Assembly: GCA_051294905.1 (NCBI GenBank)
Contig: CM119371.1
Location: 26,910,001 to 26,974,000, forward strand
Direction of reading: 5' to 3'
DNA from: Botryllus schlosseri
Lineage: Eukaryota
Length of the DNA stretch: 64,000 bases
Below the pieces are notes generated by a model. It was not told the origin of the DNA. It saw nothing but the letters and a program-made list of their open reading frames with translations, and searched no databases. Within the stretch, counting starts at the first letter, position 1, and the number at the start of each line of letters is the position of its first letter. Of this stretch, positions 36,175 to 63,419 are shown in pieces. Made by a program: the position numbers and the translations under genes.

Positions 36175-36216
36175 CTATCGTAGTCTAATATATTCATGAT
36201 AACATTATTTCTTGAC
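36175..36216 (-). CDS. Predicted exon F of unknown spliced gene (SRNNVIMNILDYD)
   Basis: TCTTCCGCAG acceptor, GTAAAC donor, 42 bp, phase 2-2, in frame with exon 36355-36520. Confidence 0.5.
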
Positions 36217-36354
36217 CTGCGGAAGACAGCGTTACAGCCCAGTGTTGAACTACGCCGGCAAGTTTGAAAGCGCTATTCTTGCGGAATTTTGTCAGATGTT
36301 AATATCGGTATTGGCATGAATTAAAATCATAAGATGCGACAGTACGACACCTAC

Positions 36355-36520
36355 CTTTCGCGCCATTCCATATCCGCGAACATTGATTTTATTTCAGCTG
36401 TTAGCTTCCGCGACTCAGGACTTGGTTCCATTGGAACAAGTTTTGGGCCGCCACTTGCGCCCCGGCCTTGATGATAATCTTCCTCGATTTGTATACGTTC
36501 CTCCCCCATTAAGGCTGCCG
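36355..36520 (-). CDS. Predicted exon E (AALMGEERIQIEEDYHQGRGASGGPKLVPMEPSPESRKLTAEIKSMFADMEWRE)
   Basis: TTTCTATCAG acceptor, GTAGGT donor, phase 1-2, open frame, locally GC-richer than flanks. Confidence 0.6.
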
Positions 36521-36762
36521 CTGATAGAAACCGATTGCGACGGTTAAGCAATAGCACATACATGCCTCGGGTTCTCCCGAACATATCTCTATTAACTTGA
36601 AAAATATATTCATATTGAAATGTACACTTTCGGGTGACAGTCGTCAGTAGGAATACTCGCCAACTAGCAGCAAAGATTTCGAAACTACTTGTGTATCAAT
36701 AGTCGTATCCCCAACTAAGATGTAGCCGGCATAAAAATTCAAACCGTGCAGATGTCATAGAC

Positions 36763-39700
36763 CAGAGGTCTCAAACTCAAATGTGCTGGCGGGCCAATTT
36801 CCTAGTTTTTGATGAGCTCGCGGGCCGCAGCATCAATAATAGGGATATTCAATGTATAATTTCCAAGTAGGCCTTATTTGACGGGACCTTGCAAACAGGC
36901 AGTCCACAAATATAGTGGAAATGTAATTTATTATTGCACTATTTACGCGTGACACGTAAAAAATTCACATTTTCATGTAGGCTTTTGGAATAATTTTTTT
37001 TTTTTGCCGAGCATAATTTTTTTAATTGATGAGTTATAGACATCATGCGAGAGGATGCATCATGACATCGTGAAACTGTCGTGTTTTGATATTGCAGCAA
37101 GTGGACCTTGACATTTCATAATTTTTATGCAGAATATTTTAAAATCTACTGAAGATTGATGGGATATCAGAGCATTCGGGCGGTATAGCCCAATCCTGGT
37201 TTTGATATAGTCGTGATAAATATAGGCTTTTGTTACTGTCATTGTCAAAGTCAAATTTAATCAGCGTTAGATTTTGATTTCGGTTATTATTGGAACACAT
37301 CAATAACAACTAAAATATAATCATAACTGATCCATAGTAATAACATTGCTTCTTATCCTCTTTAGTGATTGTACCCCTTGTGCTTCCAATAATATTTCTC
37401 GTATCCCCTGCCCATTTTCAACACAGTTTCTGACGGTACGTATATTAAAATCAGAAAGCCTTTTCACATAAAATCGCGCGTAGCGCGAAGACGTTTTACC
37501 AGTTGTATAAATTGGCCAAGAAAATTCCACAGCATATATGCATAATTCCACAACGCATCTCGTACACCCTGGTGTGGTGCTTCGTACTCCAATGGGGTCT
37601 GCAGACCCTGGTTAAGAACCCCTGGAATAGAAATGTCCAATCGGCGAAGAATTCATTGATATTACAGCTGTGGAGCGTATACTACCAACTTACTCGCCAC
37701 CGATAATAACATGGACAATGAGAACAAACAACACCCAGCATGTAGCCAACTATACGTCACCGGGGTTACAGAATAACAATGGTTGCCATACTGACCCGAT
37801 TAGATAGCTACATACCCTACACAACGCAAGCGACGACGTTTTAATATCTTACTATTCCCCATGACAGTTTCATAGATTGTTGCGTCCGCAGGATTACCAA
37901 GTCACCGTTCCGAGTCTCAGGTCCATCTCTGATTTTAACGTTTGACCCGACTCAACTCGAGTCGTTTTTATTTAATTACCCAGTCAATCCGAAATCGAGT
38001 AATTTTACGAGAAGGTCGCACCAAAACAAATTACAATTTTCAGTCACGAATCATCAACCGGTCATGTTTTATCATCATAAACTAGAAATGTGACATATTA
38101 GCTCAGTGGTTCTTAACCTTTTTTCTTCCAGCGCCCCCTTTCAAAAACTATCGTGCTCCACCGCCCCCCACCCAATATTGTAAGGACTGTAACTAAGACA
38201 ATGGGTGAGAGGGAGGGCCGTTACAGCACCACGTCAGTCCCCTAAAAACGATTGTCTTCGGCACCCATAGCGTGATAAACCAAACTCATGAGGGCTTCGC
38301 CCCCAATAACCCCGTCGCGTGATTTCGATGGTCAGCATAGTTTATGTGGCCTGGTCGCCCTAGGAGCCAATATTTTGCTATATTACATGAGTCTAAAGTA
38401 AGCACACGATTCAAAATTAGTATTTTGTCACTGGCGAATAATTTTCTCTGATGGATGTTATTTGTCCTGTGGGGTGCAGATTGCGACGACATGATAATTC
38501 GGCACGATTGATTTAAGTATCTATGGACAATTGGACTTATATACATCGGAGTTTACGCTCAACATAAGGGCAATCCTCTTCGGCTAAGATTTACTCGCTG
38601 ACGGTCTTTTTGACACACTTCTCGGAGTCCCATATTCACCAGAACTTCATATGTCTTCGTGCATTGTGGCGTGGTAATGGGCGCCGCCGAAATATCCTAT
38701 TTCTATTTTCTAAATTACGCGTATTCTTCCGTGGGGGAGTCGTCAACACATGTTTAATTTATTTTCATTCACCGAAATAATTTAGGGCACCCTTCGAGCT
38801 AACCGATTGGGGATTTGGATTGCAGCAGTTTTGGTGTTGGTAAGAGGTCAAACTTCAGTCGGTATTTTTGAAACTTTGGTATTGGAAATATTCCGCGCTT
38901 TAATCGCGCTCGAGGACCATTCGACTATAATAAACCATATATTAATTGTTTGTGGTATATTCAGGGTCACTTCAAGGTTGTTATAACAACAATCGGGTAC
39001 AGTCTCATACCCTGTGGTTCGAACCCTCCCGAATTCACATCGGCGATTGGCAATACGGGGAAATTAATGGTATTGGATTTTTTCTTAGTGCTTTGTGTTA
39101 CTATAAGTAAGTCAACTGAGAATGGGATGCATATATCTGCTCACATTGAATTTAGTACTGTACCCAGTTATCTAATTTAACATGACTGTATTCCAAACAT
39201 AGCAAGTCATATTATTTAACGTTCATGTGAGGTCGTGACCACAACACGAGATAGTAATATCCTTAATGATACGATGAAGAAATATTATGACGATTTAATT
39301 TTGTAGCTCTCAAGTATATTTAGTAATTCATTTCGTGCACAAAGCTTCAAAACTTATTTTATGTACAAGGGGCTCTCACTCTCAACCAAACGTAATATAC
39401 AGTGCCTCATTCTTCGATTTTCACACGCTGTGCACTGCGGTATATAATACCTACTTCGAAACATTTTGTTGAAAATAACCCTAGCAAGCTTGACGGCAGT
39501 GTTCTAAATAACAGGAAATTGGCGGTCTAAAAGTGCGCGCAATTCGTTTCATATGAATTATAATAACCCACTACATTTATGAAAACATATGTAGCAAACA
39601 TAATCGCGTATCGCGACCAAACATTTCGGGATTTGACATGTTTTGTGGAATGTTAATTTGTTCTGAATACTCATTAAGGATATGTCCTGTACTAACACAT

Positions 39701-40072
39701 CATCTACGGCGAAGCCATATTTTTCTTCAGCGCCCCCTTATCGCCCCCCTGTGCCCAGCGCCCCCTCCATATCGCTCCCTGAGCGTTTCCGTCCCCTTCA
39801 AAATCCCCAGCGCCCCTTTGCGGGGCGCTGGAGGCAAGGTTAAGAACCACTGTATTAGCTGATCTCCTACCGCATGGTAGCTTTTAAAAATGATGTGATG
39901 GTGAAGTTTGTTGAGATTCCAGTGATTTTTATAGTAGTTTTACCGTGACGTTAAAGTTCTTACATCTAAAAAAGATATAGGACACTTGAATATATTGTTG
40001 AATACTTGAAATTCCAGGATGCCGTCGCGGCCGCACAAAATAATCTCGCGGGCCGCGTGTTTGAGACCTCTG
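36763..40072. mobile_element. hAT Charlie-type composite element
   Basis: TIRs CAGAGGTCTCAAAC/GTTTGAGACCTCTG, TSD TCATAGAC (36755-36762, 40073-40080). Confidence 0.92.
38104..39852. mobile_element. Nested Charlie-type element
   Basis: TIRs CAGTGGTTCTTAACCT/AGGTTAAGAACCACTG, TSD TATTAGCT (38096-38103, 39853-39860). Relative at 57403-59362. Confidence 0.92.
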
Positions 40073-42511
40073 TCATAGACTCAGTGTAATATCTCTCAGA
40101 ATCTAATACTTAGACTATACACGAACTTCTTCTGTTGGCACGAGCTGGGCTGGCGGACTCTAACAAGACTCAACTCCAAGGCATATAAACGAAAGAATGG
40201 ACGGCTTTTCCCACAACAAGAAATCTGTCGTTTCGTTAACAGTTCATGCAAATAGAAATATTCATCAAATGTTTGCTAATTATTCAAAAACAATTTTATT
40301 TTTCAAATTTCACTGGCTATATGATAAAATTCTTAGTTGGCTAAAACAACGCTGCACACCATATTTTGATCAATTCCAACCAGTAGAAGCGAAGTTATTG
40401 CAGTAGCAAAATTTGGATTTGAATAAAATAGTCTTTACGGTGGCTAACTCTTCAATTATTTAATATAAAATCATGGAATTAGAAATATTTCTACTGCAAT
40501 AACTTAGCTTCTAATGGTTGGCTTTTCGAAAGTTGCGTCTAGTTTCGGATTTCGTCTTATACCGCTTGTGGAAAAATAATATTTCCATAAATAATGCAAA
40601 TAGGAAATATAAATTAAATAAATATTGCAATTACTGCATCAAAAGCAAATAATAGGTGGGAATTATCACAGCCAACTTACGATAATATAGAAAACGGTGT
40701 TAGTGGAGTTACACACACCCGACCTACAAATATGAAGGTGCGAAAAGACAACATGTTACTCTTCGTCATGTACTCTAGCTTTGTTCGAACATAACAATTT
40801 TCTTCTAATGTCATTGTCCATTCCGTAAAATTAATAGGTTGGATGAAAAACGCTGCACACTAAATTTGGGTCGATTCCAACCTGCATCAACGATGCTACT
40901 GGAGTCGGAAATGTTTATTCAAATATAAAATAAATAAATAAAATGTTCAAATTTTACAGGAAACCACGTGAAATTGTTAGGTTGTCTACAAATATGATGC
41001 ATGCCAAGTTAAACTAAATTCCACTCAGTAGACGCGAATTTGAGTTGTTTAAGTTTTGGATGTTGAGATATGAATAAATTTGGGGTGCCGTACCATTTAG
41101 CCAACCGAACAGTTCTATCGAATGGCCAGTGAAATTTGAAGAAAATAAGTTATTTCAGAATAACCATACTGTAGGCCTTCATGATTTGCGCCCGTTTGGT
41201 ATTGACGCCTGAATTCGAGGACACAATGTTGGAATTTCATTTTATTTCTACTTTGGTAGCATCAGATAGTTTCTCAATTAGGAATCACCGACTGGTGTAT
41301 CAGATAAATATTTGAATCATTTCCTGCAATGATCGCATATCGGAGGGACTATCGTTTTGATGAAGCTATCTCAATAAATTTACACTCATTTCCAAAAAAT
41401 CAGCGTCATATTTTTTCTCTGTTCAGCAATGTCTTTATCTGAACGTTATCATCGCCCCGTCTCATGACAACATACTATTGTTTCCCATAAATGGCCAAGA
41501 TTTAAACATTACCCTATTCTGATTCGACCACACGAATCGTTTGCCGAAATTCCTACTGAATACATCACTTATTAGATGATGATCGCAATCTCGATTGTCT
41601 ATTTGATAATAACAAGGTAACAAGCAAGCAAGGTCCCGACTTACGGAGCATTCCGAGATGTCACGGAGCATTCCGAGATGTCTATGTTTTATAAGAATAT
41701 GTGGCGAACGAAAACCTACAATAAAAAAGCTCAGGTGAATACAGACCTTCAGTCCGAACCACTTTCCTTTGGCCGGACATTGGTTGTGGGTAAGAAGCGC
41801 CTATATCACTCCGATCGTCACGCCTTGTATACTGGTTGTCTGTAACACATATTACAGCACATTTGTAGTAATAATTGCACTTTTCACTTCCTAAAAACTT
41901 CTAACGTACATTCATCGTGATCTAGCACAGGATACTAGCAATTTCATGAATGCCAAGGCATGCTCCGACTACAGCATTGTGAATAGGTGCAGTCGCCATA
42001 TTACCACCATTGGGAAAGGTGCAGTAGAAGCCATCCACACTTCGTAAAACAACATTTTTCTCTCTCATATTTATTCCAATGGGCGAAAAAGTCAAATATA
42101 CCAATCCTGGTGGAGATAGAGATATGGACCTTGGAACGAGTATGGAAGCAAAATTTCCTACTGGAAAGTGAAGTTCAATTGATTTACACCCTACTCGACG
42201 CTGGACATATGCAAATGCACGACATTTATTTCCATTCGGGGTGAATTTAAACTAGTTAGGAGATGTTGAGTATACCACTTATCCTTGCCCCGGTCTACGT
42301 CAGCGTGATATCACGGCATGTGCAACTCATTTCACTTCTTACATATTGTTCTATAGTCGATATACATAACACTATGATGACTAGCCAATTTCACATCGTT
42401 ACGACACATCTAGCTGATATTTCATAACATTACTAACGCGATTTGGTTTTAGAATCCTAAAATCAATACCAGTTCAGATTGATATACGTTGCCCGCATTG
42501 CGTAGCGTATC

Positions 42512-42710
42512 AGAGAGAGAGCGAGAGAGCGCGCGAGAAAGAGAGCGCGAGAGAGAGTGCGAGAGAGAGCGCGAGAGAGAGCGCGATAGAGCGCGCTAGA
42601 GAGAGCGCGAGAGAGCGCGCTAGAGAGAGAGCGCGCTAGAGAGCGCGCTAGAGAGCGAGAGAGAGAGAGAGCGGCAGAGAGAATGCGAGAGAGAGCGCTA
42701 GAGAGAGAGA
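42512..42710. repeat. (GA)n/(GC)n compound microsatellite
   Basis: GAGAGAGCGC-type units. Confidence 0.95.
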
Positions 42711-43660
42711 CTTTATTTTCATCAAACCAAAATGCATACTAACAGACGGCAATGATGGTGGTACAGAAAATATGCATGCACAGTATTCAGTATTAGATAG
42801 GAATGATCGATACGACGTTGAGTGTCAACTAGTCTGATCACAGCCGCATCGAACAGGTACACTTGTCTTTATACAGTCTGGCTGCAAAAAAATGCGAGGT
42901 AAAACAAGAAAAAAATAAACGATGGTAGCAAATGATTATTGAAGCAATGTCTGGGCGAGGTAGGGCAACAGTGTTATTATAACCTCAAGAGGTAATTCAG
43001 TAGGTCTTTTCTGAATCTATTACAAGGCAATTCACTGATATGTGGTGGTAATGCATTACAGATGATAAGTCCTGAGTAGTCGATAGATCCCTAGGTTAGT
43101 TTGCTATTGGGTGGGGGTAAGTAGATCTTTCGCTCTGACGAGGAGCCCGTGTAATGGGAGTGGACGTTTTGAGCATGTACGAAAAAGTCATTAAACGCCG
43201 AGTAACGAATATAATTATATTCCTTTTTAATTAGACGTTATATAAGGCTAATGAGGTTTGAAAACTACCAAGGTCTTTGTTCGAGATAATTCGAACATTT
43301 CAGGAAATTATATTAAAAATGGGCTTGGATTACATCACGACTAAAATGCTTCAATGAGGTAGCATCGCTCGCATAAGACTGTAAAATGACGCCACGGGGA
43401 TCTCTTTTTGTCCGCTGAGGAGACGAAAGGCAAGGCAAAAGTAAACTGCTTGGGAAATTATACTCTTCGTTTATGTGACGGTGAAGCAATTCGTTCATCA
43501 GATATTATCACTAAAAATACACATACGTTTGTTGTAAAACAACTCTCGCGCATATCTACGATAGTTGATGTAATATACCGCCAAGTTTTAGTGCAACTTC
43601 TTGACGCCTATATAATACCAATGCAACTGTTTGGTTCTTTATCATGCGACATAATAGCAG
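42711..43660 (-). mobile_element. Decayed LINE (L2/CR1-group-like) 3' part
   Basis: Minus-strand RT-like relics (..ILQSYASDA, KDLG, NRFRKDLLNYLL), then AATAAA immediately followed by the (TC)n tract. Confidence 0.5.
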
Positions 43661-43866
43661 AAGCAGACTAAGCGAGCGGCAGTTTAGCATGTCTCACTTG
43701 AGCATGTGGATTTCATTTAGGAAGACGGTAGGGCTGAGTTGCGTGGGGTTAGGTTTAAAGATATTGTCAGTTTCTAAGTTCGAAAATCACGAGTTGAGTA
43801 TTGCACGCGCATGCTAACTGTTGTTTATCATTGTGTTGCATACTTAGATGTCGACCAATCACTTAC

Positions 43867-43944
43867 GGATTTCCGCGACAGTCGTTTCTCGGTGCTGATG
43901 TCGCTTGAGCTCCATTTCTTCGCGCCTTTGTCGAATTGATGTAT
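43867..43944 (-). CDS. Predicted exon B1 (TSIRQRREEMELKRHQHRETTVAEI)
   Basis: TTTCTACAG/GTAAGT, 78 bp, phase 1-1. Paralog 60199-60276 differs by 4 silent and 4 replacement codons. Confidence 0.7.
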
Positions 43945-44056
43945 CTGTAGAAAGGAGTATTTGTCAAGCCAATAACTCTTCATTTTAAAGTTCTGCAGTA
44001 TCGCGAAAATATAAATATGGACAACGTGAATTGAGCACAATACGCATATGTTGAGG

Positions 44057-45334
44057 CAGGGGTGGGCAAACTACGGCCCGCGGGCCGCATGCGGCCCGCG
44101 AAATGCTCAAGAATCGTATTTAAAATATTGAATAATTGCGCAGTAAAAATCTAGTTTCTGCAGGGACTCGATTAAACTTTTTATTAATATATTTCAACAT
44201 GATAATGATAAGTTATATTCTGACCAGTATATTTTTATTTCACTGCTGATCCGATAGCCCGACCTCAAGGCACACGCATTTTAAAAGGTTTCAATTGCTA
44301 AACATTACAGTAAGTCAAAATGCGAATGACTTTCGGATCACAAGTGTAATTTTACATTGGCCATTTCAATGCTGTACTTGTAAAAACCGATTCGTGCGTG
44401 TTGTAGGTAGATTCGTTCTCAGTATGTGCAAAAGTATTTATGTATATAAAATCTGTAGCATATTTGAAGCTAACATGGTTATGACGCAAATCAGTAGAAT
44501 CAACAAATCTATAAACAGATCACTGCTCACAGATTCAAATCTCCATCCTGTTCTGAGAATCGGGACAACCGACTATCATCCCTAGTTTTAAAAATTGGTT
44601 ATATTGAGGTTGACCAGCAGCTAATGAAATATCGCCAATGTTTCTGACGCGTGTACCATATCCTTAAATCAATGATTGGTTTGTTTTATATAAAAATATA
44701 TATAATTTCCACATCTTCACTACATAATCAAATATCACTATTGCGTTTTGGTTTATAATCCCAGTTTTATATAGTGCGGCAGGCGGATGGATTTAGATGT
44801 TGAATGCTCAGTCCACGAGCGTTTTTTCTTTACAAACTTGTTACTGATGAGGACGATCCACTTCTATACTATATCCATATTTGTTCGGTCACTATATGAC
44901 AGAAACAGGGGTTCTCAAATTGTGGGGCGTGGAAGCATCTTAAAGGAGGCGCGAAGCCGCAGTAAATTTTAAAAAATGTCGCGCTCGGTGCGATTTACCT
45001 CCGCTTCATGGTTATTGCTCTGTCTATTGTCCATATTTTATATTTGATAGTTCTCTCGTCTACAGCCATAGCCTTCAATGCCATCAAACTATCCGATAAG
45101 ATTGCTAGCATTCTGATTTCTCTCTTGGATATTTTGTTATATCACGATAAGGGGGACGCAAAATTTTTCACTATGATAAAGGGATGCGTGTCTAATAAAG
45201 TTTAAGAACCCCTGATATATGATTAAATAACAATATTGCTTTTTGACTAATAATCTCAATTTAATATAGTGCGGCCCGCGAATAGATTTAGATGTTGAAC
45301 GCAGCCCGCGAGCCCAAAAGTTTACCCACCCCTG
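44057..45334. mobile_element. Charlie-type MITE (intronic) with nested fragment 44906-45214
   Basis: TIRs CAGGGGTGGGCAAAC/GTTTACCCACCCCTG, TSD TGTTGAGG/TGTTAAGG. Empty site at ~60380. Confidence 0.88.
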
Positions 45335-45385
45335 TGTTAAGGCAACGTATTGCCCGCGTTAGTGCATTATATTTTCTATACTTGC

Positions 45386-45508
45386 CAGGGGATGATACAT
45401 TGCTGCTGAAAACAGGATGAACGACTGGATGCAATCCCAAAGAATCAAACGAGGGCGATAACGACAAATTGCGGTCTCTCCACTGTTGTAGAGATGACGG
45501 ATAATCAT
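45386..45508 (-). CDS. Predicted exon A1 (DYPSSLQQWRDRNLSLSPSFDSLGLHPVVHPVFSSNVSSP)
   Basis: TTTCCTACAG acceptor, GCAAGT (GC-type) donor, 123 bp, phase 1-1. Paralog 60432-60554. Confidence 0.65.
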
Positions 45509-48277: not shown

Positions 48278-51200
48278 CAGAGTTGGATCAATTGTAATTT
48301 GTAATTGTAATTGAATGTAATTAATTACATTTTTCAATGTAATTGTAATGTAATTGTAATTGAAGCATTTTTATTCTGTGTAATTGTAATTGTAATTGTA
48401 ATTTGACAAAAATTTTGCTCAATTACAATTTCAATTACATTAAATTGCTATTGAGACCTGACAAGCACAACATAAAACAATTGACTTATAATGCATTCTC
48501 TTTAAACCAGTGGTTCCCAAACTTTTTCGGTATGAGGGCCAAATTTAGAATTTCAGAGTACGGTCGGGGCCGCACGAATACTACGGCTACGAAACGGACC
48601 CAAACAGTCATCATGGCTATTTCTTAGTAGTTTTATTGCCCTGGCGAGATTTCAAAACTGTACACTGTTTACCGCTACTTATCTGCTGCATTGGGTGTCC
48701 GTTGAGTGAATAAGGTTTTCTCGCCTAAACGCGCGAAGCGAGTGAAATTTCTTTAGTTTCATCACTGAATCGGTCAAATGATCGGGAATTGCATGTATTG
48801 CTATCAATTTTCATCCTGTCTCTGTTTACGTAATCCGATTTACCGGTAGAGCTGAGTGAGATGTGTTGAAAAAGTATAGGCCCCCTCAATAGTAATTAAA
48901 CATATCCGGGGGTATACCCGTTGGCAGGAACATAACAGCAGTTCGTCAGGACCCCGGGCTCCTATAGGGTGATAAACTGACCCCACATTACGTTGTTCGC
49001 TTTTGCCACGAAATTAAAGCTGTACTGTTTAGTGAGACAGCGCGACGCGCGAATATTTCGATAATTCATGATAAAATCGGTGAATAAGATCGGGAATTGC
49101 ATGGTTGACCTCTTTGCCCACGTAATCAGATTTACCGGTAGAGCTGAGTGAGAGGTGTCTTTGAAACTGCAGACCCCGTAAAATTAAACATCTTCGAGCG
49201 GGCGGACTCCTAGGTATGACTGCTTTACATGATGTTATTTCGTGACCTCCTGTCTGCTATATCAAAAAATGTAGAATTGCCCAAACCTACTAAACTGAAA
49301 GATCACACGATTTCAGATTGGTATTTCTTCACTGGCATACAATTTTCTTTCCTGCGGGATGGTATTTGTCTTGTGAGGTTCAGATTGCCAAGACAAGAAC
49401 ATTCGGCGCCAGTCATTTAGGCGCCTATATGGACAATTAAACCTATATGTATTTTGTATATATAACGAAGTTTTTGGTCTGCATAAAAGCAGTCCTTTAC
49501 GGCCAAGGCTTTCTCGCTGCCGATCGTTCTGACACACTTCTTGGAGTCACATGTTACATGGCCTAAAACTTTATATGTCTTGGTACGTTGTGGTGTGGTC
49601 ATGGCCAACGCTGATATTCCCATTTCTCTAAATCTTGCGTATTTTTTCTTGGGGAAGAGTACCCAATAATCAAGATATGTGGCGAATTGAAATCGCGACT
49701 AGCGCGAGAATTTTTTGAAAAAGTTGCATAAATTTTCAAAAAATACTCTATAATTTATGCTAATTCACGAAATAATTTTGGGCCCCCTTCGAGCTCGAAG
49801 CCCCTCAATTGGGGGGTTTGGGGTGCGGCAATTACAGCCCTCACTATAGGACTACTAATTAGGCTGCTTTTAGCCGGCTAGGCAGTAGGGCGATGCATCT
49901 CGACGTATTCGACATTGAGTCACGTGTTGCAAATCTAATTATCAAAGGGTTACCATACGTCCTCTTTTGTCCTCTTTTTTGATTTTTTTAAAGTGTCCTC
50001 GGAGGACGCTCTAATGACTTCATTTTTGAGGATTTTGGTTACATATAGGGCCAAATTCGACTGATATAGCCTACATTAAGTCACAGCACTGTAGGCGGCT
50101 ATTTCGGGAGCTGGACCGGAAAGTTGACCTTTTTTCCAGTCAACCACCTGTTAATGTGAAAGAAAAATTGTATTTTCCGGGAGTTAAGCCTCTTTTTCTT
50201 TTTTAGTCAAGCGACCACGAAGTGGGAAAAATTTACCATTTTTCAGGATTTTCCTCCGGTTTTGAAAGTTATCAATACCTATTTATATCTATAGCTACTG
50301 CTCGTTCAACTGGAAAGTTAGGACACATTGCATTGAAACAGCAGTGGCGTAACGTTAGCAGTCTATACTCACAACTTTCCTGCAATTCTATAATTAAAAA
50401 CTACAGAGGCCAGGCCAAGCAAGAGTATTTTATAAATATAAATTTTATTTTTTTCATAAATCGATTTCTTAATATATTTTGGGGGCCGCAAGAAGGCTAT
50501 CTGGGGGCCGCATGCGGCCCTCGGGGCCGCGCTTGGGAATCACTGCTTTAAACGAACGACAAGGAATTTGGTGGATCCATTCGCGAAGGCCATTGACCGC
50601 GCCCTTGCGGGCGAAGTTTATTTTTATTTTTACCGCTATGCTGGCCTCGGCTGCCATTCCATACAATTTTTAAATTACTAACCAACCGATGGATTCGCAA
50701 CACGTGGCTCACGATTGAAAACGCCGAGAAGCGAACTGCTGAGCCGGCTAAAAGCAGCGGAATTGATAGTCCCATAGCTGGCGATCCAAGAGTGGAAATT
50801 TGATATGTATGGTCGTAATCGAAAGCTAGTGTCGCACTGATTCCGCAATAAAAGTATATTTCCAGGCAATGGTACCATCCCAAAATAGTCGTGGAAGTCT
50901 GGGAATCGGCATTGTTCTGAGCAATCGCTATGGGCGTAACTGGTAATTGTTGTAGTCATGCTGCTGCAGCGCTCTCACTTTTCAGAACAGTCGGCCTTAA
51001 ACGGCTATTTTGGAGCAGTTACATTGCCGTGACGAGATTTTATTTTGTATTTTCGGAATTAGTACATCAATAGCTTACGATGAAGACCAAATGCATCAAA
51101 TTGGACGCATGGATCGCCAGCTCTAGGACTATAAAGTTTGCTGGTTTTAGCCGAATTTTCAGTACGTTTGTCGGTGCATTCATCCGTGACTCACATATGG

Positions 51201-51932
51201 CGCATCTATCCGTGGGTTGGCAATCTACAATACGATTTCAGATCACGATGATGCATCGTTATTTCGTCTGGCTAACTAACCAGACCACTGGATATTATAT
51301 AACGTCTTATCTGACAAAGCACGGTTTTGTTTTTACTCCTCATCCTAATTCCTACGTCCCTGGATAAAAATAATATTGTTTCTTTAATTATATACTATAT
51401 ACGCAAATCCAACACATGCATATATTATAATACTTTTTCAACGACATACTGCACCCTATCCCCAATCCTAACCCATAGGAAATTAGGTAAATAACATTTT
51501 ACATTTCCAATTACGTGAGCCTAATTACCTAGCATACAAAACACGCTTACATTACGTCACAGTGACATCTTACATAGCATACTATGTACGCACATCAACG
51601 CAATTATTACTACACAATCTGAACTAGACTTGAATTGTTGTTAAATACGACGCTACGGTTGTCAAGGACCACGGTTGAATTTATGACTATTCAATTACAT
51701 GTTCAACAGCAGCAATTGTAATTGTAATTGTAATGTAATTGATGCATGCAAGGAGTAATTGTAATTGTAATTGTAATGTAATTGATGCATGCAAGGAGTA
51801 ATTGTAATTGTAATTGTAATTTGATATTTTTAACATGGAGTAATTGTAATTGTAATGTAATTGAAACATTCATGAAAGTAATTGTAATTGTAATTGTAAT
51901 TGAACTGAAATAATGTAATTGATCCAACTCTG
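48278..51932 (+). mobile_element. Non-autonomous hAT (CAGAGTTGGATCAATT family)
   Basis: TIRs as for 29248-30714, TSD CATATATA (48270-48277, 51933-51940). Confidence 0.93.
48508..50545. mobile_element. Nested Charlie-type element
   Basis: TIRs CAGTGGTTCCCAA/TTGGGAATCACTG, TSD CTTTAAAC (48500-48507, 50546-50553). Empty site at ~29463. Confidence 0.92.
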
Positions 51933-52999: not shown

Positions 53000-53119
53000 C
53001 CTTGGAAACATCCGTGACATCCCACATTTTCAGATTTCGTTGCGTAGTAGAGTACGGAGACTTCACTGAATGCTTATTCTTTTCAGGCATGGTATTTCTG
53101 CGTTGTTCTGTCCTCGACG
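53000..53119 (-). CDS. Predicted exon C1 (SRTEQRRNTMPEKNKHSVKSPYSTTQRNLKMWDVTDVSK)
   Basis: AACAG/GTAGCG, 120 bp, phase 1-1. Same-length paralog 61629-61748. Confidence 0.6.
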
Positions 53120-54380: not shown

Positions 54381-54452
54381 GCATTTCCACGGTAGGCGAT
54401 TCGGAATGTCGCTGTGACGTGCTGCCCATTTCTTCATTTCGTTGTCCAACAT
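54381..54452 (-). CDS. Predicted exon B' (VGQRNEEMGSTSQRHSESPTVEM)
   Basis: TGCAG/GTAAGT, 72 bp, phase 1-1. Distant homolog of the B exons. Confidence 0.6.
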
Positions 54453-54632
54453 CTGCATTTATAAATATATGGCACTTATCATCAAGTCAACAAATTACCA
54501 TATTTTAAAGTCCCTCGCATAGTTGCACTTATTTAAGTAACAAGCATTATATAAACACAATATTCATTATTAAGACAGGGTAATTATACAACACAGGGCC
54601 CGCGTCATTTCATGACATCATTTTCTGCATAC

Positions 54633-54719
54633 CTGAAGACGATACGCTTTTGCTGGGGCAGTCATATATTAGCGGACGCATATCCAACGAGTCATGCGAA
54701 GGGGATAAATGCTGGTGGC
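54633..54719 (-). CDS. Predicted exon A' (HQHLSPSHDSLDMRPLIYDCPSKSVSSS)
   Basis: ATAACAG/GTATGC, 87 bp, phase 1-1. LSPSxDSL..P..VSS shared with the A exons. Confidence 0.6.
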
Positions 54720-54945
54720 CTGTTATAAATAAAATTGAACAACAAACTTTTTTAAACAATTGTGCCGATACGTGGTGATATGCAAGGCTGGGAATTGCCG
54801 AGTGCTTGACAAGACACTTTTCGAGTAAAAGGCGTCCAGTCGAGTAATCGCGTATCAGTTATGGTTACGTCACACACTAGAAGACCAGACCGCTCAATTC
54901 TACACCTTCATCCCAGAAAACAGAATTATAAACTATCAGTTACAG

Positions 54946-55356
54946 CAGAGGCGGGCAACATACGGGATATAGAGTGGCCCGCATACAGTTTCCGGTCTTC
55001 AATGATAATGTGACCCACGGGCCTACATACAGTTGCGATCAAACATTTTCGACCATTAACAATCTAACTGACGTTCACGTGCATTATTTCTCATTGGTTT
55101 CTACGTCTGACATGCGGCCAGAGTATGATGAACTTGTGGACAACGTTGATGGACCAGAGATGTCGCATAGGCTGCAAGAGCTATTCAAGTGCATTGCGTT
55201 AATAATGTAATAAACACTGATTTTGGTCAGTATACTCTAGAGTCTAGACTCAAAGGTTGCAATAGATACGATTTATTTCTTGTATAGGCGGACAAATACG
55301 TGATCAATGTATCGATTCAGGAATCCGGCCCGCCGACTGGAGAAGTTGCCCACCCT
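54946..55356 (+). mobile_element. Charlie-type MITE retaining transposase C-terminal relic
   Basis: CAGAGGCGGGCAAC...GTTGCCCACCC termini. Translation TYSCDQTFS..LTDVHV..STSDMRPEYDELV..SH. Confidence 0.7.
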
Positions 55357-57070
55357 TAAAGCAGGGCATGGTATGGAATGGAATGGAATGGGAATTTTAC
55401 ATATTCCACACCATAGCAATATTCTTCCATACCTTATTCGATACTTTTTTCGTACTTTCGCGACCTGCCCAACCTCGCCAGTGATGTTCCATTTTTGGTA
55501 TGTTGATATGTTGCGGCGTTTTTATTCTAATTATTGTGAATGAAATTATCCATTTAATCAGTCATGGTGCACTAATGATATCCCCAGTGTCTTTATATCA
55601 TATGTCTTTACGAGTGTATGTTGCCTAATCATCGAAGACGGAACGTACAATATATAGGCCTATCACACACGGGATTATTTGGAAATCTCAACAGAATCTC
55701 ATGACATGTAAGTCTAGTGTGGTAACGGACTGCTAGCAGTAACATAATCTACAAGATTACATAAACCGAAGGTATTGTGAAATTAGAAGATTGGTTCCCA
55801 AACCTTTTTTCTTTATTCCCCACAACCTGAAATCTATATTTCCACCCTTTAAAATTGTTCCCTCCAACAAAATTTGGTAAGACTTTGTTTTGTAAAGACT
55901 TGCGATTGGTGAAAGTTAAGATTGCCAGAATTGAACGGCACGCAATGAACAGTGAACTGGTAACCGTAAACACAATGTTGCGCCTCCGTCAAATGTGGGC
56001 ATGTGTGTAAGCTGGCAGAAAAATAGGAACGGCTTCAAATCTTTCCAAATGGAGCGAGGTAGCATCAATTTACATGTGTAAGTGCCAAACACTGCATGAG
56101 CCGGATAAACTTGCTGCTGTTAGATATAAGCTGCCATCAGCTACACTTTCGCACGCTACATAACTCAAAAGAAATTTGTCATTTAATACGTAGCGAGTCC
56201 GGCTATGCTATAGATTAGGGAGTCCGCGATCTCCCTAAATTCATATTCATATACATATGAACTCTCATTATAACGAATCAGGTGATGTTAATTAACACCA
56301 TTTCGCATGTGACTGAATATCAACGTATGCGGGAGATCGCGTGCCGCTGTCCAGTGTCCACTGTCCAGTCGATTCTCACTAATTGGAGGCATTGATAATA
56401 CGAATCGATGAAAGAACAAATTAGCTAATAGGCTTAAATAATAGAGACACGATCGGCATTTCATATAAACGTTTAATAAACGAGGTTAATAATGTAAAGA
56501 ATTTTTTACAAGTGAGTCTATACCCGACCAGAAACCCCTAAGTTACCCACCGCTTCGAAACCACTGCATTAGAATGTATCTTCGAATATAAATTTACATC
56601 ACTGCAATCAGTTTGGTGCATCGGATCAATTATCCATTTTTCGCGCCAATCTCTTGGCCACACATTAGATTCGTTAGCCCAGATCAGGGTGTCTATTCTT
56701 TCATCATAAATGACCAAATTTCATGAAGCTTAATGCATGTTGGAGAACAGCATACCGTAACGTCGGTCCATGACAAGCTACATATTTTTGAATTACAATG
56801 ATGATAAGGCCAAATATTCATTTTAGTTTTTATATTCTCAGAATCTACGATTTTAAAACTCCCTTGGAAGTGGAAGTTGAAATGGAAGTTGTAACGCGAA
56901 AGCGGTCGAATATCATTCGTTTTTATAGTCGATAGATTTGATTTGATTTGAATATTTATTATTAATATTATCTTCTTTCATATGCGCGTAACGCTACTTT
57001 GTTGTCTTCAAATAGATGTCAACCGGGGTGGGTAAGTGATGAATCGAATTTGAGATATTAACTTAGACCA

Positions 57071-59776
57071 TAGATAACTAACCTACGGAATGATGCACAA
57101 CACGTGATTCACGGTCGAGTGATGCGATAAAGGCAGATTTGTCGTCTGTTCACAGCATGAAACGGCAACGTAATTGCCAATCGCATAGATGACGACCCGA
57201 GCGCTCAAATTAAATAAAGTTGATCTTATTTGAGAGCTACCGCCGCGCTGATTCTGATAATATACATTGAACTTTTATCGAGGCAATGGAACCACCCCGA
57301 AATAGCCTTCAAAGTCTGAAAATCGGCATTGCTCTAAACAATCGCAACGGCGCAGCACAATAACCATAACAACGGTCCTTGCGTGGTTGCTATTGTTTAG
57401 AACAGTGGTTTTTAACCTTGTCTCCTTCGCCCCCCAGGGGGCGTTTTGGATTTTGAACGGGGTGGAAACGCTCAGGGGGCGAAATGGGGGGCGCTGAAGA
57501 AAAAGGAACTTACAGTAGATGCTGTAGTGAGGACATATGATTATATAGTTCTATAGGCCTATATCCCCGAGTTCTCACTGTCAACTAACTCGAGAAAATC
57601 TGTCAAATCACAACATTATTCGTTGCACTCATCGCGAAATATCCACCGACGATGTTCCCGTGAAAGCAGTGGTTTATTTTAATTGATGTAAAATTAATTT
57701 GGTTTACTTTTGAATTGCCAATTCCCCGTTAAAACACTCCCGTCTCGCTAGCTTCTCCAAGTCGTTTCGACACCTTCCTATCTTTTCATTGTATCACAGT
57801 TTTGTTGTGTTCTGAAACTATGAAAATATTATTGAACGGATCCTTATACTGATCTAGTACAATTATTCACTACAATATGGCGGCGCCAGAGTATCCATAG
57901 CTCTAATAGCTCGGGTTATTTCCACAAAATGTTTTAACTAGGTATCGACGTATATCGTATCCTGTAGCGCACTGCGTGTCAAAATCGAAAAGGCACTGTA
58001 ACTGTACAACTTTTGAGAGTGACGCCCTTTGTACATTAGAGATGTTTTGAAGCTTTTTGGCCAAACTGATCTACTAAATATACTTGTATTTGCGAGCTAC
58101 AGAATTAAATCGTCAGAATATTTCTTCATCGTGTCATAAAGGATGATACTATTTAGTGTTGTTACCCCATTCATGTTAAAGTTAAGATTTTGGTGGCTTG
58201 GTGAAGTACTAGATTTAATGTGAACAAATCTTTACCACATTCTCAGTTGATTTAGTAGTCTCACAAAGCAATAAAACTAAACCTTATACTATTAACTTCC
58301 CCCTATTGCCAATCGCAGAGGAGAATTCGGGATGTGTTGATCGATCTTGAACGAAATACTGTGGGCCCGTAGGCTAGGGTTGCCATACGTCCGGAATTTC
58401 CCGGACATGTCCGAAATTTCACTGTTCAAACTAACGTCCAGGAGGAATTTCTAAAATATGTCAATAGTCCGGAATTTTGAAGACTTGACGTAGGCTCATA
58501 ATTTCTTCGTAAATCAGCATAAAAACAGTATTTTTTGGAAATATTTATGCTGATGCATGATAGTTTTCTTCGCGCTGCGCGCAATTTACTATCACATTTG
58601 TTGCTTTTGATATGGAGACTACCACCTTCTCAAAATCTGCAATAAAATATAAATAAAAGCAACCTTCATTTACTGGAATAAGCCTAATTGTAGTCGCAAT
58701 TATAGGAGAACGGTAAATTCCTAGATATTGTTAAGGCGGTTTAAATGCTTCATTCAACGAGAGTTGTTCCAAACGGGAGCGGGGTCTTTTGTCTTTATTC
58801 TGGGGTTTGCGAATATGTTGAACGTAATCAGCTTCCAAATTAGCCCGTGAGTAAGTCTGAGCAAAGCTGCTGACTTCTCTTAGTAATTGGCTCGTAAAAT
58901 TTTGATCAGAGCCACGGAACATTTTCAAATTGGAGAAGGAATCGCGACCATAAAAGGTTGGAAACCACTGGATGTGGGGTGTTTATAAAGCTCCGTGGTG
59001 CGCACCGGCATAAGGCTGATAAACAATCTTATCGGTAGGACATGACCACGACTTAACGATGTGCAATTACGCTCCCTGTATTTTCGAACTCATTATCCTC
59101 CACCAGCTCTACCGCTAACTCTGATCATGTGGGCGGAGAGTAATATCTAAATAGGAATATATGGAACGACCAATATTATTGACAGAATTCATTCAAATAA
59201 TTCAACGACCAGATGCATATAAAAACCAAATTCATATAGCAAGCACCCCCCCACCCGAAGTTTCATTGATTACCCTGTAGTGTGGGCTCAAAATCATTGT
59301 TTATTTGGGCGGGAGGAAATTTTTGAAAGGGGTGCTAGAGAAAAAAAGGTTAAGAACCACTGGTTTAGAACAATGCCGATTTTCAGACTTTGAAGGCTAT
59401 TTTGGGGTGGTTCCATTGCCTTGCCTCTTCTTTACATCGCCTAGGCGAAGGTTGGGGTCTGATCCTAAAGGCTACTCCAAGTTGTTTCGACACCTTCCTA
59501 TCTTTTCATTGTATCGCAGTCTTGTGATGTTTTGAAATGATGAAAATATTAATAAAACTGATTGACTGATGAAAATTCAATGGATATCATCAGAATCACC
59601 GCGATTGTAACTTTCAAATAAGATCAACTTTATTTAATTGGAGCGCTCGGGTCGTCATCTATGGGATTAGCAATTACGTTGCCGTTTCATGCTATGAAGA
59701 GAGGACAAATCTGCCGTTGTCGCATCACTCGACCGTGAATCACGATTTGCGTATCTATCCGTAGGTTAGTTATCTA
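57071..59776. mobile_element. Palindromic MITE (TAGATAACTAACCTACGGA termini) split by later insertion
   Basis: Arms ~57071-57345 and ~59371-59776 are reverse complements. Confidence 0.8.
57403..59362. mobile_element. Nested Charlie-type element (contains Blackjack-like end at 58376)
   Basis: TIRs CAGTGGTTTTTAACCT/AGGTTAAGAACCACTG, TSD GTTTAGAA (57395-57402, 59363-59370). Confidence 0.9.
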
Positions 59777-60198
59777 TACATAGACAGTGAGAGATTTTCT
59801 GAGGTATCGCAAGTAGGATCATTGCCATGATTCTGGCAAAATTGCCAAAGCATGGAAAAAAGTACCGAAGTATGGAAAGAACATTCCATACCATACTTGG
59901 TAAATTTCCATACCATACCATACTTGCACTATTCCAAATTCCATACCGAAATTTTATTTCATACCATACCATACCATACTTCGATACCATACCATATCAT
60001 GCCCTGCCTTTGAGTTACAGCATTCGACGGTAAGCGACGGTAAGATCACGACACTAGAAAACTATATATAACTTGTTTCAATATAAGTGATTGCGGGCCC
60101 TTACCATACCTAAAATTTATTCCGCGTTCGATGATTTCACGTCGTGGCGTGAGTTAAGTATTGCATACTTGGGTGTCGACTGTCGAGCAATCACTTAC

Positions 60199-60276
60199 GG
60201 ATTTCGGCGACTGTCGTTTCACGGTGATCCTGTCGCTTGAGCTCAACTTCTTCACGCCTTTGTCGAACTGATGTAT
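60199..60276 (-). CDS. Predicted exon B2 (TSVRQRREEVELKRQDHRETTVAEI)
   Basis: Same splice sites and length as 43867-43944. Confidence 0.7.
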
Positions 60277-60431
60277 CTGTAGAAAGGAGTATTTGTCAAG
60301 CCAATAACTCGTCATTTTCAAGTTTTAGAGTGGTACGAAAATAGAAATATGGGCAACGTGAAATGAACACGCTACGCATGTGTTTAGGCAACGTATGGCC
60401 CACGTTAGTGCATTATATTTTCTATACTTGC

Positions 60432-60554
60432 CAGGGGATGATACATTGCTGTTCGAAACAGTATGGACGACTGGTTTTAATCCCAAAGAATCAAACGAGG
60501 GCGATAACGATAAATTGCGGTCTCTCCACTGTTGTAGAGATGACGGATAAGCAT
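60432..60554 (-). CDS. Predicted exon A2 (AYPSSLQQWRDRNLSLSPSFDSLGLKPVVHTVSNSNVSSP)
   Basis: Same length and GC donor as 45386-45508. Confidence 0.65.
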
Positions 60555-61093
60555 CTGCAGGAAAACGAAAAAGAAAGAAATAGGACTATATATAGTTATA
60601 ATATAGCAATTCACAATCGATTGCAATAATTGAATTAATAATAGATACTGCAAGATGCATCAAAACCACTTACGTACGAAGCAAAAACTATTATCCATGG
60701 CGTCTTGAGTTATCAAAATATTAAATATGTGTATATAGTGCAGTCGTTCTTAACCTTTTGTAAACTGCGGAACACATACGCCAATCTGCAAGCCTTCGCG
60801 GAACCCCAAATTTTCACCGAATCATAAAAACAAATATCTATACTACAATTCACATCTAAATACATATCTAATACATTACTAAAAAATACTTTTTCACAAC
60901 TATGCATCAACCGAATGTTAACAAACTCATCCAAATAGATAGTTCGCATAAAACCAAAACATTATATTGTATATTTATGGCAAATCAGTGTCATCTCTGC
61001 AGTGCCATTTCAGATACCAGTCCGGAATTGCGAGACATCACATTGGAAAACGTCATCGTGTTATTCGGTCGACACGCAATAGCGTCGATACCC

Positions 61094-61566
61094 ACCGAGT
61101 CAAGTCCGAGCCCGAGTCATGGAGTAGAGTGCCGAGTCCGAGTCGTAGTGTTTTGACTCGAGTCCGAGTCCAAGTCATTGTGTCGACTGTTCAGTTACGA
61201 GTTACTGTCATGTGAAACTCACTTTTTACAACTCTGCTCGGTGACATCGAGTGCTTCGCATTTACAAACCATAGTTTTCCTCAATTTTACAAGTTTCTGG
61301 TAGAATTTTCAAGTACCAGTACTGATAGACGAAATATTAATAGTGTGATAACTTTACTATTCTTCGGAATGACTAAGAAATGCCTGAATTGGTAGACCCA
61401 GTCTCGGGGCATGCACGATGATTCAAGTACAAGTCGAGTCGATGCACAAATTGACTCGAGTCGAGTCATTTTTCATTTTTAAGAAATTGACTCGAGTTAA
61501 ATGAAGTCACCAAAAAATCGCGACTCAAGTCTGACTCGAGTGATGACTCGAGTCATTACAACCCTG
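61094..61566. mobile_element. Truncated hAT-like MITE with GACTCGAGTC repeats
   Basis: Ends GACTCGAGTCATTACAACCCTG. Related end starts ~63821. Confidence 0.7.
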
Positions 61567-61628
61567 CTAACCCCTCATCTTGTCACGCGTATTGCTCCAT
61601 AGTACAGCAACCAAAATTACCATGTTAC

Positions 61629-61748
61629 CCTTGGAAACATCAGTGACATTCCACATTTTCAGTCTTCGTTGTGTAACAGAGGGTGGAGGCTTGACTGAAT
61701 GCTCATTCCTTTCAGGATTGGTCATTCTGCGTTGTCCTGTCCTCGACG
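61629..61748 (-). CDS. Predicted exon C2 (SRTGQRRMTNPERNEHSVKPPPSVTQRRLKMWNVTDVSK)
   Basis: AATAG/GTAACA, 120 bp, phase 1-1. Confidence 0.6.
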
Positions 61749-63419
61749 CTATTGGTAGATGCATTATGAAGTGAGTCGTACAAGGAATAAATAAATTCAA
61801 CAAGCCATTCGTGGTACAGAACTTCAGAATTGAACGAATCAGTATCTGAATATTGATAATATGTCACTCAAAGCGTTTGCAACGACTCTCGGCAGTAGCG
61901 AATGACAGTAAAAAGGTGAATGCTATTCGTAATGTCGTAGATAGTAAGTCTGTGTGACGTGATAATAACAAAACGAATAATTCTTCGGCATGTTCCACGG
62001 CAAAATAGAAAAAACGCGATGCTCATTCAACTCAATGATCGCGTCATTCATAAACATCTATAGAAAATACCCATGACATTGCCAATAGAGTTTTTCACTA
62101 TTTTCCTTACTCATCCTGACGACGTCTGAAGCAATGCCTCAATTGAACTTCAGACCGCGCGGTGGTTTGTACCATGGCTCTTGTGTCTGCTAGTTTTTTG
62201 TTATTATTACGTCCCATAAACATATTATTTCCTACTTGGCGGGTTTTATCCACCGTATTACTGACGTTCGCTACTGATCATAGTCTTAGCCTGACGTTAA
62301 TATATTTTGAGATCCGGATAGGACGCTTTTAACAGGTTGCAAAAGTTACTATAGCGGACAAGTGAATCGTCGATTTTTATATTTATAGAGCTGATTTCGT
62401 TAGTTTGAATGAGAAAAAAAAGTATTTTATCGACTTGAATCCCGAAATAACCGCTTTTATTTTAGCGGCATTGACTAAAATAAAAAATAGGTATTTTTCA
62501 ACTCGACCCGCGAAATACTCTTAGTCCGAGAGATCGGCCCAACATTACCCGTAAATCATGGTCTTTTTTTGGCATTTTAGGCACAAAAGAAGGCCAAGTT
62601 GCTAAAAAGGAAGACATTTGGGTGAATGGAGGACATTTCTTGAAAAAGTATGACAAATCCTCCTAGAGGACGTATGGTAACCATATCATAGTTAGTTAAA
62701 AGGCTGTTAGTGAATATATTGCCAACGTGAAGCTATTCTTCAGTGTAATACCTGATGCATTGATATCATAATACATCATTATCCCTTCACCCTCAAGCAA
62801 TGTAACTACGACAATTACTAGACTGTAAAATCAATGCTACTGAGACCACTGGTAGACATGATGCGCGCTTTAATTACATTGACTGTACTTATAGTACCAA
62901 CTATGTATTAACTACGTTACCCCCCTCAAGAAAATACTCAATATATATTTTTCGGAATTTTTATCAACACTTTCGATTGAGTTTGAAGGAGATATCATTT
63001 TAATCGCTCTCTGCATTATCCGCAAGCTTACCTTTCATCTCGAATATCATATGCACACTTCTCGGTAGAATGATAATTAGTGCGACTGCTTTTTGACATG
63101 TCAAAATTTTGTCAAAATTGATACTTTAGGACGAAAAATTGTCCCAATTGTTCAAAAAGTTAATATTTTTTGCAACCTGCATTTCGTTTGTATCGTAGAT
63201 GTTTGCACTGTCGATGAACCATATACTATATATAGGCGATGCATGAACTTATCATTCGACACTTTACAGCTTGTAGCCTATTATATAGGCCTACCGGGGT
63301 GGACGGCCCATTGTCTGCTCAATTTGAATCGTAAACGGTCATATGAACTAAATAGGTTGACATGGTATTATGTTCAACGTACCGCAATATCTAAACTGAG
63401 GCAAGACTCGTGGGCATTG

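What the first reader, a model, noticed from the sequence alone, without database searches (positions are those of the whole stretch)
36175..62830. Hidden ~26-kb orphan gene built from repeated symmetric phase-1 exons
Seen on the minus strand, in order: C2 (61629-61748), A2, B2, a possible exon 54772-54876, A', B', C1, possible D, A1, B1, then E and F. All exons up to B1 are 3n long, phase 1-1, open and have plausible splice sites. Recent duplicates keep length and show silent changes, and A'/B' are an older duplicate. The product is Ser/Pro/Arg-rich with recurring LSPSxDSL, QRxEE(M/V) and dibasic RR/KR sites. A hydrophobic exon candidate LVIVVVTLLEGEG lies at ~62752-62823. The ORF track misses it because the exons are tiny. 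Inference: a modular protein growing by exon-block duplication with free exon skipping, such as a secreted precursor or receptor tail. It could instead be two tandem paralogs.
Basis: partly seen in the sequence, partly recalled or inferred. Interest (0 to 1): 0.7.

Follow-up and report, generated by a model that had tools for sequence, protein, structure and literature searches.

The report
Orphan gene doubled five-exon block
In a sea-squirt-type genome, a block of five tiny exons was copied in tandem and kept its reading frame while the DNA around it decayed; the exons likely belong to one gene for a floppy protein predicted to hang in a membrane by its tail, but no transcript was seen and this way of growing a gene is already known.

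Summary
The exons are real. Five phase-1 exons (A'-B'-C-A-B) occur twice in tandem on the minus strand; the upstream copy starts just beyond the window. Across 468 aligned exon bases there are no frameshifting indels, against 27 in 1,659 flanking bases. All ten copies are open with intact splice sites, but dN/dS (0.6-0.75) is not significantly below 1. The start and end regions are single-copy, so this is most likely one gene with an internal duplication, not two paralogs. The best model has 17 exons and 527 aa: basic, largely disordered, no signal peptide, with one hydrophobic helix in a newly found last exon (34675-34582), so likely tail-anchored. No spliced reads or homologues were found. 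Both A' copies keep a dileucine sorting motif, a weak hint of endosomal sorting. The scan has noted the same architecture at four other loci in this genome, which I found not detectably homologous, and it is described for human disordered proteins. It is an ordinary mechanism in an uncharacterised orphan gene.

The parts
61749..64000 (-). Intron B'2-C2, which runs past the window end. Five more modelled exons lie beyond it in locus L002 (L002 coordinates, minus strand): B'2 1832-1891 (60 nt, phase 1-1, 12 nt shorter than B'1), A'2 2062-2148 (87 nt, 1-1, dileucine motif EMRPLL), and the tentative start cluster B0 8766-8858 (93 nt, 1-1, alternative ATG at 8838), A0 8935-9018 (84 nt, 1-1) and first coding exon 9063-9126 (ATG at 9126)
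   Evidence: A'2 and B'2. Start cluster; needs 44-nt and 76-nt introns and a weak A0 donor
61629..61748 (-). Exon C2, 120 nt, phase 1-1
   Evidence: 84% identical to C1; only two copies in the genome
60432..60554 (-). Exon A2, 123 nt, phase 1-1, GC donor
   Evidence: only two copies in the genome
60199..60276 (-). Exon B2, 78 nt, phase 1-1, end of the upstream block copy
54633..54719 (-). Exon A'1, 87 nt, phase 1-1; dileucine motif DMRPLI
54381..54452 (-). Exon B'1, 72 nt, phase 1-1
53000..53119 (-). Exon C1, 120 nt, phase 1-1
45386..45508 (-). Exon A1, 123 nt, phase 1-1, GC donor
43867..43944 (-). Exon B1, 78 nt, phase 1-1, end of the downstream block copy
41747..41839 (-). Exon E, 93 nt, phase 1-1, single copy; supported by frame and splice sites only
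36355..36520 (-). Exon F, 166 nt, phase 1-2, single copy
   Evidence: donor score 5.9
36175..36216 (-). Exon G, 42 nt, phase 2-2
   Evidence: acceptor score 4.0
34582..34675 (-). Predicted last coding exon H: phase-2 start, 23-residue hydrophobic run with one Lys, 7-residue tail of net charge -1, then TGA
   Evidence: Nearest listed phase-2 acceptor after G, score 4.3; KD19 2.13, the only membrane-length peak of the model; single copy
34051..34581 (-). Predicted 3' UTR with ATTAAA at 34117 and AATAAA at 34056
   Evidence: no reads
54772..54876 (-). Rejected: 'exon X' is duplicated intron sequence
   Evidence: Its copy in L002 (about 2200-2308) lacks the AG and has frameshifts and stops
62752..62823 (-).
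   Evidence: Weak sites, short hydrophobic run, no counterpart in the other block copy
49136..49249 (-). Rejected: best candidate for 'D' lies in a high-copy dispersed repeat

Best explanation
The duplicated exons are held in frame by selection and likely belong to one lineage-restricted gene of about 39 kb, predicted to encode a roughly 527-aa basic, mostly disordered cytosolic protein anchored in a membrane by a C-terminal helix. History, read from the DNA: an A-B exon pair was copied once long ago (A'-B' versus A-B), then the five-exon block A'-B'-C-A-B was copied in tandem, and transposons later filled the introns. Because every cassette is phase 1-1, each copy was tolerated without breaking the frame. 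Selection keeps frame and splice sites but constrains the residues only loosely, as expected for a flexible arm carrying short motifs. Inferred, untested: the tail anchor (hydrophobic helix, short tail of charge -1) enters the ER membrane after translation; the two [DE]xxxL[LI] motifs in the A' exons would bind clathrin adaptors and sort the protein to endosomes or lysosome-type organelles, where it would act as a tether or adaptor; duplication doubled its motif count; expression is restricted to a tissue or stage not sampled here.
For: Frame and splice-site constraint. All 17 exons join into one open frame of 527 codons plus stop, with one hydropathy peak, at residues 496-509 as window starts, and a maximum of 0.66 before it. 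FoldIndex-like values are negative over most of the length, pI 9.2. Start cluster, E, F/G and H are single-copy; A and C have exactly two copies; duplicated DNA spans internal exons only. H is the nearest listed phase-2 acceptor after G; 7 of 1,513 comparable acceptors in 264 kb, H included, give a frame this hydrophobic; poly(A) signals follow. The dileucine motif survives in both A' copies although two motif positions changed (D/E, I/L) and resembles LIMP-2's DERAPLI (PMC5297682, passages). A hydrophobic helix with low tail charge favours ER entry in mammals (PMC5450235, abstract and section 7).
Against: No transcript. Exon-bearing bins had mean depth of at most 0.12 in three bulk RNA runs read to 6-13%, and no splice joint was among the 15 joint rows shown, with 155 more not shown. 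Over F, G and H, contig run X24 gave only 3 intronic records, and three single-cell runs laid 0 reads, which the tool marks as no test. dN/dS is not significantly below 1, and C gives 1.15-1.37. No homologue. The G-H join and the first three exons rest on my own approximate splice-site scores; the first two introns are only 44 and 76 nt. Hydrophobic pseudo-terminal frames are common at looser thresholds. A plain dileucine match arises in 29% of shuffles, and the Pro-containing form in 1.9% but was chosen after the fact. A phase-2 acceptor at 23683 scores higher than H (5.5) but lies 12.5 kb beyond G, inside the neighbouring gene's inverted copy.
Confidence: 0.55

Rival explanations
1. The same single gene, but soluble or with a different end: H is a chance hydrophobic frame and the transcript ends or continues elsewhere.
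For: No junction reads for G-H. H has a Lys in the middle of its helix. Chance hydrophobic frames behind good acceptors exist (7 of 1,513 at this strength, 50 of 1,513 at KD 1.6 or more; many at looser cut-offs).
Against: H is the nearest and strongest listed phase-2 acceptor within 12 kb of G, lies in single-copy DNA, ends in a stop and is followed by poly(A) signals.
Confidence: 0.17
2. A recently silenced gene: the frame was protected in the past, but the locus is no longer expressed.
For: No exon reads in the runs laid; dN/dS of 0.6-0.75 is not significantly below 1.
Against: All 17 modelled exons are still open with intact splice dinucleotides after 12% exon and 18% flank divergence between the copies. 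The runs were partly read, of unknown tissue, and three were no test.
Confidence: 0.12
3. Two tandem partial paralogs or two transcription units, one ending after B2 and one starting before A'1.
For: The B2-A'1 join (5.5-kb intron) has not been seen in RNA.
Against: There is no second copy of the start cluster or of E, F, G or H, and the duplication is internal only.
Confidence: 0.08
4. A secreted precursor or type I membrane protein, with the repeats outside the cell and cleaved at dibasic sites.
For: Six N-glycosylation sequons in the model. The 5' end is tentative, so an unseen signal-peptide exon is possible.
Against: No hydrophobic first-exon candidate in 66.4-82.3 kb. Dibasic sites number 14 versus 11.2 expected. 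The 62.8-kb hydrophobic exon fails.
Confidence: 0.06

Closest known systems
Disordered proteins assembled from phase-symmetric exons by internal tandem duplication, e.g. calpastatin and MAP2 (class 1,1 exons); Schad, Kalmar and Tompa 2013, PMC3632108 (abstract and section 19 read)
   Same: Run of phase 1-1 exons, low-complexity disordered product, repeated multi-exon units from internal duplication.
   Different: No sequence similarity shown. Calpastatin and MAP2 repeats hold conserved binding subdomains with known partners; here the residues are loosely constrained, no partner is known, and a C-terminal membrane helix is predicted.
Tail-anchored membrane proteins as a class (Costello et al. 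2017, PMC5450235; abstract and section 7 read)
   Same: Single hydrophobic helix at the C-terminus, short tail, no signal peptide; low tail charge of the kind linked to ER entry.
   Different: Membership rests on an unproven last exon. No family domain was found in the pieces scanned. The targeting rules come from mammals and yeast.
Membrane proteins sorted by [DE]XXXL[LI] signals, e.g. LIMP-2 (DERAPLI, AP-1/AP-3); PMC5297682 (passages read)
   Same: Both A' exons carry a matching motif with Pro before the leucines, on the predicted cytosolic side.
   Different: The motifs lie about 250 and 400 residues from the helix, not in a short tail. Binding is untested and the match is statistically weak.
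Other exon-block orphans noted in this genome by the scan (e1-9984145 and e1-9921604, acidic tail-anchored family; e1-9074204 and e1-7802777, basic)
   Same: Same build of small cassette exons duplicated in blocks; the acidic family also uses phase 1-1 exons and ends in a hydrophobic helix.
   Different: No detectable homology (best tblastn E 0.02-0.05 in small databases; tail alignment p about 0.03). The acidic gene ends in one phase-1 exon; this one ends with 1-2, 2-2 and 2-stop exons and is basic.

Membership tests
Gene grown by internal duplication of phase-symmetric exons | Consecutive exons of one symmetric phase | tested here: met
   13 modelled phase 1-1 exons, 10 of them in duplicated pairs
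Gene grown by internal duplication of phase-symmetric exons | Duplicated exons keep frame and splice sites beyond neutral expectation | tested here: met
   0 versus 7.6 expected frameshifts; survival 8e-4
Gene grown by internal duplication of phase-symmetric exons | Both copies are spliced into one transcript | tested here: inconclusive
   No junction reads; single-copy ends argue for one gene
Gene grown by internal duplication of phase-symmetric exons | Product largely disordered | tested here: met
   Composition (Ser 12.9%, Arg 10.1%) and FoldIndex-like profile, negative in 15 of 20 windows; prediction only
Tail-anchored membrane proteins | One transmembrane helix within about 30 residues of the C-terminus | tested here: inconclusive
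   Met in the model (KD19 2.13, 7-residue tail), but the G-H splice is unseen
Tail-anchored membrane proteins | No N-terminal signal peptide and no other membrane helix | tested here: met
   Maximum KD19 0.66 outside the tail; no hydrophobic first-exon candidate; 5' end tentative
Tail-anchored membrane proteins | Post-translational insertion with the N-terminus in the cytosol | not testable with these tools
   Needs a cell experiment
Secreted peptide precursor | Signal peptide | tested here: not met
Secreted peptide precursor | Enriched dibasic cleavage sites | tested here: not met
   14 observed versus 11.2 expected
Dileucine-sorted endolysosomal membrane proteins | [DE]XXXL[LI] motif on the cytosolic side | tested here: inconclusive
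   Present in both A' exons; chance 0.29, or 0.019 with Pro
Local acidic tail-anchored orphan family (e1-9984145, e1-9921604) | Sequence homology and shared terminal exon structure | tested here: not met
KASH proteins; immune-receptor tails (motif patterns recalled, not from a call) | C-terminal PPPx; ITIM | tested here: not met
   No match in the model
BH3-only proteins (motif recalled) | L-x-x-hydrophobic-G/A/S-D spacing in an amphipathic helix | tested here: not met
   In the helix of exon F the Asp is one position late and Phe occupies the small-residue position (sequence; loose pattern)

The most novel reading that the evidence does not exclude
A tunicate-specific, tail-anchored trafficking adaptor whose cytosolic arm is an accordion of 13 freely skippable phase-1 cassettes, so that splicing sets the arm's length and how many dileucine, LIR-like and phosphorylation motifs it shows. 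It would be one of several unrelated orphan genes that this genome builds the same way, which would point to a recurring route by which new membrane adaptors arise.
Probability: 0.1. Interest if true: 0.55.

Novelty: new member of a known kind. Interest (0 to 1): 0.24.

Why it matters
It adds an unannotated gene model and is a clean case of selection acting on reading frame and splice sites much more than on amino acids, with two rounds of duplication still legible. With the similar but unrelated loci noted elsewhere in this genome, it suggests that exon-block duplication is a common way to lengthen disordered orphan proteins here, and that ORF-based annotation misses them. It opens no long-standing question unless regulated skipping or a sorting function is shown.

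Tried and rejected
Sequencing-run search: no RNA holder listed. Run X1 behaved like DNA: its pieces run through introns. Single-cell runs X6, X17 and X18 laid 0 reads, which is no test; 8 of the 24 listed runs were laid. Protein homology: exon F against longer proteins, 0 of 11 candidates at E<=1; A-exon alignment, 0 of 79 at E<=10. Both are weak negatives, and near-length proteins were not searched. The full HMMER search of protein representatives never ran (queue full on eight tries), so remote homologues remain open. Pfam: no family for the 7 exons of this gene among the 11 pieces scanned. ESM Atlas with exon F: only small bacterial hypothetical clusters, recognition below threshold, uninformative. 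Own-genome searches found no paralog. The pooled dN/dS of 1.06 used an A'2 coordinate off by one and is replaced. Fusion to the downstream fibrinogen-domain gene was considered, because G ends in phase 2 and an in-frame phase-2 acceptor exists at 23021. It was rejected because that gene has its own ATG and hydrophobic leader and H ends in a stop. An E-like match in L002 at about 5740 (tblastn E 0.28) was treated as chance. C versus B, E versus C and E versus B0 are not significantly alike (p 0.33, 0.91, 0.56). LIR-like (chance 0.19) and RxRxxS (0.46) motifs in the A exons are not significant. Literature: 'Botryllus' + 'tail-anchored' and 'ascidian' + 'orphan genes' + 'exon duplication' gave 0 papers; that genus name was only a guess used as a search word, and the species was not determined. 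Tandem exon duplication papers were seen as a search listing only. No supplements were read. No structure or complex prediction was run, since a disordered chain in separate short exons would not be informative.
Full report
Setting. The window is G000:C1:26,910,001-26,974,000 of a 495.5-Mb eukaryotic assembly in 219 contigs, about 39% GC and rich in dispersed repeats. The genome has three matches to the glycoside hydrolase family 6 profile, all over the cut-off (one only together with its neighbours in the frame). Among animals this domain is typical of tunicate cellulose-synthase genes (recalled knowledge), so the host is likely a tunicate. The species was not determined. Coordinates above 64,000 extend the window numbering into locus L002.

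Observation. A strict splice-site scan of 36.5-74 kb returned only the four A-type exons as phase 1-1 candidates; a loose scan of 36.5-100 kb returned 68 rows, so single uncopied candidates need other support. Looking past the window end showed further copies of A' and B' at 66062-66148 and 65832-65891. The duplicated unit is therefore the five-exon block A'-B'-C-A-B, present twice, and the homologous DNA covers these exons and their near introns only. A'-B' and A-B are an older duplicate: 0 of 2000 protein shuffles and 0 of 500 DNA shuffles reached the observed scores.

More than chance. Comparing the two block copies, exons are 87.6% identical over 468 bases and flanks 82.0% over 1,659 bases (Fisher P=0.004). 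Flanks carry 27 frameshifting gaps, the exons none (7.6 expected, P about 5e-4); the only exon indel is 12 nt. A simulation at flank-level divergence keeps frame and splice dinucleotides in all five pairs with probability 8e-4. The pairs were chosen for being open, and the failing X pair was counted as flank, so these figures overstate somewhat. Amino-acid constraint is weak: pooled dN/dS is 0.61 (P=0.13), or 0.75 with transition weighting (P=0.34), with single exons from 0.33 to 1.37.

Parts that fail. Exon X has a copy that lacks the acceptor and has frameshifts and stops. The best D candidate is a high-copy repeat. The hydrophobic candidate at 62752-62823 is unique DNA, but has no AG at that start, weak sites, a peak hydropathy of 1.43 and no counterpart in the other copy. 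Dibasic sites are at chance level.

Ends of the gene. Downstream, E (93 nt, 1-1), F (166 nt, 1-2) and G (42 nt, 2-2) follow. The nearest listed phase-2 acceptor after G is at 34675 (score 4.3) and opens a 30-codon frame that is mostly a hydrophobic helix, then a stop; ATTAAA and AATAAA follow at 34117 and 34056. Of 1,513 acceptors scoring 2 or more in 264 kb, 7 (this one included) give so hydrophobic a frame. This is suggestive, not proof, because looser thresholds give many such frames. Upstream, four ATG-to-phase-1-donor candidates exist in 66.4-82.3 kb; two are 2-3 codons long and the other two sit in one single-copy cluster at 72.8-73.1 kb. None has a hydrophobic leader. The cluster needs introns of 44 and 76 nt and a weak donor, so it is tentative; its second exon is faintly like A' (p 0.04-0.06). 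The start cluster, E, F/G and H are single-copy, and A and C have two copies. This favours one gene with an internal duplication over two paralogs. The 17 exons join into 527 codons without a stop: Ser 12.9%, Arg 10.1%, pI 9.2, mostly predicted disordered, with one hydrophobic peak at the end.

Expression. Three bulk RNA runs, read to 6-13%, gave mean depth of at most 0.12 in the bins holding A1, C1, A'1/B'1 and A2/B2; reads elsewhere were mostly partial matches to repeats, and none of the 15 joint rows shown (155 hidden) was a splice junction of the model. On 33800-36700, contig run X24 gave three intronic records and three single-cell runs gave no reads, which the tool counts as no test. So there is no transcript evidence, and tissues are unknown. 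Narrow expression and recent silencing both remain open.

Homologues. None were found in the protein collection with exon F or the A alignment (weak negatives), in Pfam or in the Atlas. The full profile search could not be run. Earlier notes of this scan describe four other exon-block orphan loci on the same chromosome. I fetched those regions and found no homology. The terminal helix exon of the acidic family aligns to this tail at only p about 0.03 and has a different exon structure.

How it most likely works. Shown: two rounds of internal duplication of phase 1-1 cassettes and selection on frame and splice sites. Inferred: a single mRNA for a long flexible cytosolic arm on a C-terminal membrane helix. 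A hydrophobic helix with a low-charge tail favours ER entry in mammals (PMC5450235, abstract and section 7). Both A' exons hold a [DE]xxxL[LI] motif with Pro before the leucines, the type that sorts LIMP-2 through AP-1 and AP-3 (PMC5297682, passages), and both amino-acid changes within the motif stay inside the consensus. That suggests onward sorting to endosomes or lysosome-type organelles as a tether or adaptor, but the motif's chance rate is 0.29 (0.019 with Pro, chosen afterwards), so this step is a lead only. I put the gene model with a tail anchor at about 0.55 and the sorting role at about 0.2.

Comparison and verdict. Genes of disordered proteins built from symmetric exons by internal tandem duplication are described, with calpastatin and MAP2 as class 1,1 examples (PMC3632108, abstract and section 19). 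This locus works like those in how it grew but is not shown to be related to them. Two literature searches for this gene type in ascidians returned nothing; supplements were not read. It is a real orphan gene with no database match found here and a new member of a known kind; interest 0.24.

Noticed in passing
window 21585-23083, minus strand: A four-exon gene for a small secreted fibrinogen-domain protein with a shortened N-terminus: hydrophobic leader from the ATG at 23083, Fibrinogen_C matches in exons 2 and 4; one relative, 55% identical, from sequencing-run contigs.
   Followed up: partly
window 22617-24062: Inverted repeat with 680-nt arms, 93% complementary, 86 nt apart. It copies the first two exons of the fibrinogen-domain gene head to head onto the plus strand.
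   Followed up: partly
window about 24270-27730: Element bounded by matching terminal inverted repeats that holds a spliced, apparently damaged Myb/SANT-like gene on the minus strand (exons at 26732-25955). Likely a Harbinger-type transposon; the label is recalled, not tested.
   Followed up: partly
window 9602-10216, minus strand: 205-aa open frame that looks like a transposase remnant; no Pfam match.
   Followed up: partly
L003 about 8380-10000 plus strand (extended 82.4-84.0 kb) and extended 130980-131525 minus strand (L008): Two near-identical C-type-lectin-like frames; the nearer one appears to start with a signal peptide and would bound the gene's 5' end. The family label is recalled, not tested.
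   Followed up: no
window 45386 and 60432 donors: Both A exons use a GC donor with an otherwise perfect consensus, kept through the duplication, while the older A' copies use GT.
   Followed up: no
G000:C9:15,015,149-15,068,854 (L027, L028): Three clustered GH6-like matches, two in open frames of over 500 codons; more copies than the single cellulose-synthase gene recalled for tunicates.
   Followed up: no
G000:C1:7,775,293-7,775,488 (L032): Terminal phase-1 exon with a strong hydrophobic helix and acidic tail of the acidic orphan gene noted earlier by the scan.
   Followed up: partly
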